A stretch of DNA of 64,000 bases, taken from Eledone cirrhosa. Lineage: Eukaryota. The stretch is from NCBI GenBank assembly GCA_964016885.1, contig CAXHJY010001068.1:1-64000 (forward strand). Reading direction: 5' to 3'. The first letter of the stretch is position 1; each line of letters begins with the position of its first letter. The translations under genes and the position numbers were made by a program. Shown piece by piece: positions 22,976 to 23,162 of this stretch. Under the pieces are notes generated by a model. That model had not been told where the DNA came from, searched no databases, and was given only the letters and a program-made list of their open reading frames with translations.

Positions 22976-23162
22976 TGACGTCTGAGAGAAAAGAGTACTC
23001 AATACCGAAGTAAAGTGTTAATATTCAATATTATTAAGGCTAAAACGCGAGTTTCGCCTCTTTATCAGACTCATCAGACAAGAATTCTTGTCTGACGAGC
23101 CTGTGATAAACTGGCGAAACTCCAGAGTAACAAGAATCACTGTTTAGCTTTAATAATATTGA
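22976..23162. mobile_element. HHR-type mini-element family B, head-to-head inverted pair
   Basis: Axis at gaattc (23082-23087). The + arm is an intact HHR; the - arm has CTGATGA..GGCGAAACTC followed by a deletion. Confidence 0.85.
23084..23137 (+). ncRNA. complete type I hammerhead ribozyme (family B)
   Basis: Helix I AUUCUUGU/ACAAGAAU (8 bp); core CUGACGA (23092-23098); helix II GCCUGU/ACUGGC; GAAA (23116-23119); helix III ACUC/GAGU; predicted GUA cleavage after 23129. Confidence 0.88.

What the first reader, a model, noticed from the sequence alone, without database searches (positions are those of the whole stretch)
23049..23137. Well-formed intact hammerhead paired head-to-head with an inverted twin
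Seen: an 8-bp helix I, CUGACGA, a 6-bp helix II with one mismatch, GAAA, a 4-bp helix III with a 2-nt loop (CUCCAGAG, near-palindrome) and a GUA site. A second CUGAUGA..GGCGAAACUC core points the opposite way from the GAATTC axis, which sits at the start of helix I. This is the best single candidate for biochemical testing, and transcription in either direction meets a ribozyme core.
Basis: partly seen in the sequence, partly recalled or inferred. Interest (0 to 1): 0.75.

Follow-up and report, generated by a model that had tools for sequence, protein, structure and literature searches.

The report
Decayed Penelope retrotransposon end with hammerhead
This is one old copy, among more than a thousand, of the tail end of a known kind of jumping gene: one arm keeps a complete self-cutting RNA motif, its mirror-image twin has lost the cut site, and the two arms are predicted to zip together and block cutting, so it is ordinary.

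Summary
The plus-strand type I hammerhead (23084-23137, GUA at 23127-23129) is real and beyond chance. The twin is not a second ribozyme: it stops at GAAACTC (23049), having lost 16 nt with the cut site. Both arms form one inverted repeat (22976-23163) predicted to out-compete the ribozyme fold by about 26 kcal/mol; the proposed construct from 23075 drops helix I pairing to about 1%. The motif is a dispersed family (1,233 exact hits of a 20-mer). Walking upstream through un-inverted copies reaches a decayed RT plus GIY-YIG gene with Hydra-clade Penelope motifs; 5 of 20 endonuclease-picked loci carry this hammerhead downstream. In 80 sampled loci, 40 have an inverted twin, with 36 different junctions; 32 of 40 have one long and one short end; none has two intact ribozymes. 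An inverted 5'-truncated copy with hammerheads on both strands is published (Penelope-13_HM). The informative part is family-wide: paired ends and 5' ends piling up at helix I, suggesting two cDNAs per insertion. This scan has already noted that pattern on other DNA of this genome. New family member, low interest.

The parts
22976..23163 (.). Whole insertion: two head-to-head 5'-truncated copies of the 3' end of a Hydra-clade Penelope-like element, between (TA)n on the left and (TG)n on the right
23084..23137 (+). Type I hammerhead, complete core, cut predicted after 23129 (GUA)
   Evidence: sequence; descriptor and shuffles; folding; cleavage not tested
23084..23091 (+). Helix I 5' strand; 23085-23091 inherited from the parent, 23084 is the junction base
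23092..23119 (+). Core CUGACGA, helix II (G10.1-C11.1 closing pair, rare in the family; private A>T at 23112 makes the mismatch), GAAA
23119..23129 (+). Near-palindromic helix III (ACUC-CA-GAGU) and GUA site; predicted to pair between two molecules
   Evidence: dimer fold; PMC4209133
23138..23163 (+). Short 3' end of the + arm (family short end point, ...AATATTGAAT)
23082..23087 (.). GAATTC inversion axis: both arms stop 7 nt before the core; one of many junctions in the family
23049..23084 (-). Broken twin: helix I 5' strand, CUGAUGA, shortened helix II, GAAACUC; 16 nt lost after 23049 between two ACTC repeats, removing cut site and helix I 3' strand
22976..23048 (-). Long 3' end of the twin (about 60-nt tail beyond the short end point), with a small bulged hairpin at 23016-22997
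   Evidence: same hairpin shape read by eye in the Hydra-2_Amil 3' end shown

Best explanation
The locus is a decayed, twice 5'-truncated fragment of the 3' end of a Hydra-clade Penelope-like retroelement, whose mirror-image twin was likely made during insertion and is predicted to keep the one intact hammerhead from folding. Shown: family membership, link to an RT plus GIY-YIG gene, variable inversion points, one long plus one short end, loss of the cut site in the twin, old age. Inferred mechanism: the element's endonuclease cut an AT-rich microsatellite; both DNA ends primed reverse transcription on uncut element RNA at two start points about 60 nt apart; both cDNAs stopped at or inside the ribozyme (here both 7 nt before the core) and were joined end to end, giving the GAATTC axis; the copy then aged without sign of selection. 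In the parent the hammerhead would most likely act weakly, as a dimer or with help from the element's protein, as reported for other Penelope-like elements; at this locus it is likely inert.
For: Family size: 607+626 exact hits of a 20-mer, controls 0; two more copies in the window, both long/short fold-backs. Parent: un-inverted copies share a long upstream 3' region that leads 1.5-2 kb up to an endonuclease end in L178, L179, L183, L184. L179 reads a CxCx5C linker, no cysteines inside GIY-YIG, CxxC before E and CxH after N, and an inverted RT piece; these are the Hydra-clade features in PMC8557442 section 11, and the RT and linker stretches match the published Hydra alignments by eye. 5 of 20 loci picked by endonuclease DNA have this hammerhead 0.75-2.4 kb downstream on the same strand; in 6 of 20 the RT piece is collinear upstream. 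Published Hydra hammerheads have the same design, and Penelope-13_HM is listed with an inverted 5'-truncated copy and a hammerhead on each strand. 40 of 80 sampled loci have an attached inverted arm with 36 different junction pairs; 32 of 40 are long/short, 1 long/long, 4 short/short, 3 intermediate (Fisher p 2.7e-5 on the 37 clear cases). Arms of one insertion share non-majority letters in 63 of 342 cases (18%) against 7% mean and 12% maximum in 2000 shuffles. Arms differ by 17.6% on average, 8 of 56 columns here. Only 1 of 30 tail-picked hits begins at the cut site, in line with uncut RNA being the template (PMC11167929).
Against: No intact parent was found; every coding piece seen has stops and frameshifts. 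15 of 20 endonuclease-picked loci had no same-strand hammerhead of this family within about 4 kb. Pfam gave 0 families for the two protein pieces tried; the Atlas gave mostly unnamed clusters, with RVT_1 on 13% of one cluster at score 0.90; the clade call rests on motifs read by eye, not on a tree. Some junctions recur at unlinked loci (GAATTC axis also in L014/L015, L017, L098), so some twins could descend from a hairpin source. Folding energies ignore tertiary contacts and proteins. No target-site duplication can be read in the microsatellite flanks.
Confidence: 0.88

Rival explanations
1. The twin arises by self-priming or snap-back of a single cDNA (or of an antisense template) at the ribozyme's helices, not by two separately primed cDNAs.
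For: Proposed for palindromic junctions of rotifer Penelope elements (PMC3846280, passages). Junctions cluster at helix I and the core; 11 of 40 show a short overlap. Shared variants between arms fit either route.
Against: It does not by itself explain why the copied arm ends at the other fixed end point: in 10 of 40 the sampled arm is long and its twin short, in 22 the reverse, and a fold-back copy of a short arm cannot yield the extra 60 nt. 21 of 40 junctions have extra or unaligned bases rather than an overlap.
Confidence: 0.2
2. A palindromic non-autonomous element (MITE-like or hairpin retroposon) that moves as one fixed unit and happens to carry two hammerheads.
For: Similarity-picked copies nearly all look palindromic about the same place; a few junctions recur; arms share variants.
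Against: In the motif-picked sample 40 of 80 have no twin, 36 of 40 junction pairs differ, outer ends are unequal, and the arm continues into a retroelement gene in longer copies.
Confidence: 0.05
3. A selected bidirectional ribozyme switch or terminator at this locus, cutting transcripts from either strand.
For: The + core is complete and has G10.1-C11.1, seen in 7 exact hits against 138 for C10.1; both arms carry G at this place.
Against: The twin lacks its cut site; 0 of 40 sampled twins have two intact ribozymes; the hairpin is predicted to win by about 26 kcal/mol and would form first on a plus-strand transcript; the copy carries private changes in helix II; only repeat-derived open frames were seen in 8000-40000.
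Confidence: 0.03
4. A retrozyme monomer copied from a small circular RNA.
For: Type I hammerhead with dimer-type helix III, as in animal retrozymes (preprint 10.64898/2026.07.22.740005, part 1 read).
Against: No tandem units here; one tandem pair separated by (TA)n among 80 loci (L110); copies do not begin at the cut site; longer copies lead into a coding retroelement.
Confidence: 0.03

Closest known systems
Hydra clade of C-terminal EN+ Penelope-like elements (Craig et al. 2021, PMC8557442; section 11 and passages read, supplement parts S1/S2 and alignment excerpts seen), e.g. Penelope-13_HM, Hydra-2_Ajap, Hydra-2_Amil, Hydra-1_Obim
   Same: RT then GIY-YIG order; CxCx5C linker; CxxC/CxH around E and N; (TA)n sites; sense type I hammerhead near the 3' end with ACTC-n-GAGT helix III and A at the cut; pyrimidine pair next to the core as in Hydra-2_Ajap; inverted 5'-truncated copy with a hammerhead on each strand (Penelope-13_HM)
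   Different: This family's hammerhead matches none of the rows in File S2 (Hydra-1_Obim has another sequence); its 3' untranslated region is 1.5-2 kb, longer than the listed elements of under about 3 kb would allow; no intact copy found
Minimal and short-helix-III hammerheads of metazoan Penelope-like elements (Cervera and de la Pena 2014, PMC4209133; parts 1-2 of 4 read)
   Same: Unstable palindromic helix III that needs a dimer; mostly solitary truncated copies; pairs on opposite strands 100-700 bp apart already reported
   Different: Helix III has 4 potential pairs rather than 0-2; the family mostly has a pyrimidine mismatch where that paper reports conserved G10.1-C11.1
Poseidon_Ac of green anole (Frangieh et al. 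2024, PMC11167929; parts 1-2 of 4 read)
   Same: Two reverse-transcription start points that define the one-sided tail; both target strands cut and extended; uncut RNA is the main template; hammerhead needs the protein
   Different: Other clade; tail 30-40 nt there, about 60 nt here; there the hammerhead overlaps the start codon, which was not seen here
Adineta vaga Penelope elements (PMC3846280; passages read)
   Same: Head-to-head inverted pLTRs with palindromic junctions and a tail on one end
   Different: That paper favours self-priming; the long/short pairing here favours two primed cDNAs

Membership tests
Type I hammerhead ribozyme (+ arm) | Core CUGANGA, GAAA, UH with three helices, helix I open | tested here: met
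Type I hammerhead ribozyme (+ arm) | Rfam hammerhead model at gathering score | tested here: not met
   0 at gathering; 16.9 bits to the type III model only
Type I hammerhead ribozyme (+ arm) | Site-specific self-cleavage | not testable with these tools
   needs in vitro transcription
Type I hammerhead ribozyme (minus twin) | Helix III, cut triplet and helix I 3' strand present | tested here: not met
   16-nt loss after 23049
EN+ Penelope-like elements | RT followed by GIY-YIG endonuclease upstream of the 3' repeat | tested here: met
   in longer family copies, not in the window copy:
EN+ Penelope-like elements | 5' truncation with adjacent inverted copy | tested here: met
   40 of 80 loci
EN+ Penelope-like elements | Tail at one end only | tested here: met
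   32 of 40 twins; about 60 nt rather than 30-40
EN+ Penelope-like elements | Partial tandem (pLTR-ORF-pLTR) full-length copy | tested here: inconclusive
   none seen in 31 longer stretches; family is old and fragmented
Hydra clade | CxCx5C linker; no CCHH; CxxC and CxH around E and N | tested here: met
   read by eye in L179, L183, L184, L212
Hydra clade | RWK and DKT motifs at the RT N-terminus | not tested
   that part of the gene was not recovered
Hydra clade | Placement in an RT tree | not tested
   no tree built; Pfam blank
Hydra clade | (TA)n insertion preference and canonical 3' hammerhead | tested here: met
   flanks seen by eye (not counted); design compared with File S2
Non-LTR retrozymes | Head-to-tail tandem units each with a hammerhead | tested here: not met
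MITE / palindromic DNA transposon | Fixed unit with equal terminal inverted repeats | tested here: not met

The most novel reading that the evidence does not exclude
The ribozyme's 5' edge sets where copying ends: 74 of 80 sampled arms begin between 15 nt before and 21 nt after the first core base, with a cliff at the 5' strand of helix I, while the few that pass it mostly run on for more than 100 nt. Either the main template RNA starts just before helix I, or the new cDNA snaps back on its own copy of helix I and drops off. With the long/short end rule, each head-to-head twin would be two cDNAs primed from the two sides of one break and joined at the ribozyme, which would give Penelope hammerheads a structural role in insertion that needs no cleavage.
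Probability: 0.3. Interest if true: 0.55.

Novelty: new member of a known kind. Interest (0 to 1): 0.2.

Why it matters
For this locus, little: it is one aged copy of a repeat family, and the head-to-head layout is a published trait of Penelope-like elements. It corrects the proposed experiment (start the transcript at 23078-23084, test dimers, do not expect the twin to cut). At family level the thousands of short copies record how Penelope-type enzymes insert: two end points used once each per twin, and 5' ends piled at the ribozyme. That bears on an open question named in PMC8557442 (how tandem and inverted structures form), but this scan has already reported the same pattern for other families in this genome.

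Tried and rejected
1) Type III reading using the GAATTC hairpin as a closed helix I (suggested by the weak Rfam matches): rejected, the triplet before the hairpin is CAG on both strands, not NUH. 2) Intron idea: a donor-like GTTAGT 12 nt before the core and an acceptor-like TTTTCTCTCAG in the tail would enclose the ribozyme; a search for the spliced junction gave 2 one-mismatch hits, neither in family context. Unsupported, not excluded, since these elements tend to keep introns. 4) Expression: no RNA holder listed. Reads laid (4 runs, at most 3 samples, 2 studies) show family copies in large numbers but no piece spanning this locus's axis; this neither confirms nor questions the assembly here. 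5) First chance control was faulty, its helix II rule missed this site; repeated. 6) A GIY-YIG piece upstream in L072 is on the other strand and of another type; not taken as the parent. 7) Pfam blank and Atlas uninformative for the protein pieces. 8) Paper searches: one search found 0 papers with 5 of 6 terms on self-priming and second-strand synthesis; one search found no paper on hammerheads in Octopus beyond PMC8557442 (listing only); listing not followed up. These few searches do not show that the 5' pile-up is unpublished. 9) Earlier-findings searches by sequence, words and nearness gave nothing.

Full report
Setting. The window is contig C1095 of a 3.0-Gb genome (G000), AT-rich and full of microsatellites. 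Between 8000 and 40000 the 28 open frames of 130 codons or more all read as simple repeats. Earlier notes of this scan call the genome octopus-type; I did not test that.

Observation. A full descriptor finds 3 such sites in the window and none in any of 200 shuffles. Rfam has no match at gathering score and only weak type III matches. The minus-strand core is present but ends at GAAACTC (23049): 16 nt between two ACTC repeats are gone, with the cut triplet and the 3' strand of helix I. The two arms are one inverted repeat, 22976-23163, between (TA)n and (TG)n.

Folding. Alone, 23084-23137 keeps helix I, but helix III is marginal in the monomer; the two-molecule minimum-energy fold forms helix III between molecules (-30.2 kcal/mol), the dimer design described in PMC4209133 (parts 1-2 read). 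With the twin included the hammerhead fold costs about 26 kcal/mol. Helix I pairing is 0.98-0.997 for starts at 23078-23084, about 0.42 at 23076-23077, 0.009 at 23075 and about 1e-16 with the whole twin. These are nearest-neighbour values without tertiary contacts; the relative change is what counts.

Family. An exact 20-mer over helix III and the cut site occurs 1,233 times, controls 0; a 19-mer just behind it 972 times. I fetched the first 80 loci (84 of the 100 listed rows, four pairs merged; all on C1). This sample requires the exact 20-mer, so it leans to conserved copies; L064 and L065 look like a local duplicate. Against a profile built from 12 un-inverted copies (5 further candidates dropped for want of an anchor motif), 40 of 80 have an attached inverted arm, with 36 different junction pairs; 11 overlap, 8 are blunt, 21 have extra or unaligned bases. 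The window's other two copies (14667-14836, 21189-21392) are fold-backs with other axes. So the GAATTC axis is one junction among many, though it recurs at a few loci.

Ends. Arms end at one of two points about 60 nt apart. Of 40 twins, 32 pair a long with a short end, 1 is long/long, 4 short/short, 3 intermediate (Fisher p 2.7e-5 for the 37 clear cases). In the window the intact arm is short and the broken twin long. Arms of one insertion share non-majority letters more than shuffled pairs (63 of 342, 18%, against mean 7%, maximum 12%); here both carry G at 10.1, a letter seen in 2 of 62 sampled arms and 0 of 27 twin arms and in 7 exact hits against 138 for C. Arms differ from each other by 17.6% on average and from the column majority by about 12-13%: an old family. 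13 of 80 sampled arms, 1 of 40 twin arms and 0 of 40 pairs pass an intact-ribozyme test; among the 30 similarity-picked loci one (L006) passes on both strands.

5' ends. 74 of 80 arms begin between -15 and +21 of the first core base, 32 of them at -15 to -5; 6 run further, 5 of those beyond -100. In 30 hits picked by the tail motif (26 distinct loci), 1 starts at the cut site, 5 at +28 to +34, 23 at -9 to +17, 1 at -20. Templates were therefore mostly uncut RNA, as found in vitro for Poseidon_Ac (PMC11167929), and copying stopped at the ribozyme's 5' edge. The cause is open: an RNA start, a snap-back on helix I, or short source copies.

Parent. Six un-inverted copies share upstream sequence. 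Three walking searches extend it through a 1.5-2 kb AT- and C-rich region to the end of a coding frame in L178, L179, L183 and L184. L179 reads, through stops and shifts, a CxCx5C linker, a GIY-YIG region without inner cysteines, CxxC before E and CxH after N, and holds an RT piece in inverted orientation. These are the Hydra-clade features of PMC8557442 section 11, and the RT and linker stretches match the published Hydra alignments by eye. Of 20 loci picked from 42 endonuclease matches, 5 carry this hammerhead 0.75-2.4 kb downstream on the same strand, 15 do not within about 4 kb, and 6 have the RT piece collinear upstream; three of the 20 had also turned up in earlier searches. Pfam was blank for two pieces and the Atlas gave only a weak RT lead; no tree was built.

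Comparison with print. File S2 of PMC8557442 lists Hydra hammerheads of the same build, with either a pyrimidine pair or G-C beside the core, and lists Penelope-13_HM with a hammerhead on each strand; File S1 notes its inverted 5'-truncated copy. PMC4209133 already reports pairs on opposite strands. PMC3846280 (passages) describes head-to-head palindromic junctions with a one-sided tail and proposes self-priming. This family's hammerhead is not among the S2 rows, so it is a further family of a known clade. I saw 3 look-ups' worth of that supplement (one part and two searches), not all 59 parts.

Mechanism. Shown: anatomy, family statistics, link to the coding region. Inferred: nicking of an AT-rich site, priming from both DNA ends at two start points, termination at the ribozyme, end joining, later decay. 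The long/short rule argues for two cDNAs over one snap-back, since a fold-back of a short arm cannot supply the longer end. Cleavage was not tested; by analogy with PMC4209133 and PMC11167929 the parent's ribozyme would be weak without a partner or protein.

Earlier notes. The scan has reported Hydra-clade fold-backs with paired ends, tail hairpins and 5' pile-ups for other families in this genome; my counts agree but were made on this family. Those notes are not independent support.

Verdict. Real hammerhead motif, broken twin, ordinary Penelope-type insertion. New member of a known kind; interest 0.2.

Noticed in passing
window 23535-23722 and 22760-22944; relatives at 21387-21718, 37276-37550, 42200-42460: A second fold-back family next door: inverted arms joined inside helix II, keeping only the 3' half of a hammerhead (GAAA, 5-bp helix III, GUC); one long and one short end and the same small bulged tail hairpin.
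   Followed up: partly
window 20796-20819 and 31347-31370: Two copies of a minimal Penelope-type hammerhead core with a very short palindromic helix III.
   Followed up: no
window 23383-23427, 30981-31023, 60990-61039: A further hammerhead family with a long helix II; two copies pass the full descriptor; the 60990 copy has an inverted partial arm at 60822-60910.
   Followed up: partly
window 14667-14836 and 21189-21392: Two more copies of the family studied, both fold-backs with a long left arm and other axes (in helix II, in the core).
   Followed up: yes
L251 around 1460-1560 (G000:C1:77975337): A twin whose two arms both begin at the predicted cut site, the one case in 30 that fits copying of cleaved RNA; L082 and L076 have one such arm.
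   Followed up: no
family parent, e.g. L107 and L084, 12 nt before the core and 112 nt after it: Splice-donor-like and acceptor-like motifs flank the ribozyme; no spliced copy found.
   Followed up: partly
L002, L005, L023 around 1550-1620: Recurrent loss of the ribozyme's 3' half between short direct repeats, like the loss in the window's twin.
   Followed up: no
L072:400-1330 (-), L180, L187, L188, L012, L100: GIY-YIG remnants of other Penelope-type families near family copies.
   Followed up: no
window 31786-32815: 17 near-identical (99%) tandem copies of a 60-nt unit, open in one frame on each strand.
   Followed up: no
window 141-5458: About 5.3 kb of nearly pure TA/TACA microsatellite at the contig start.
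   Followed up: no
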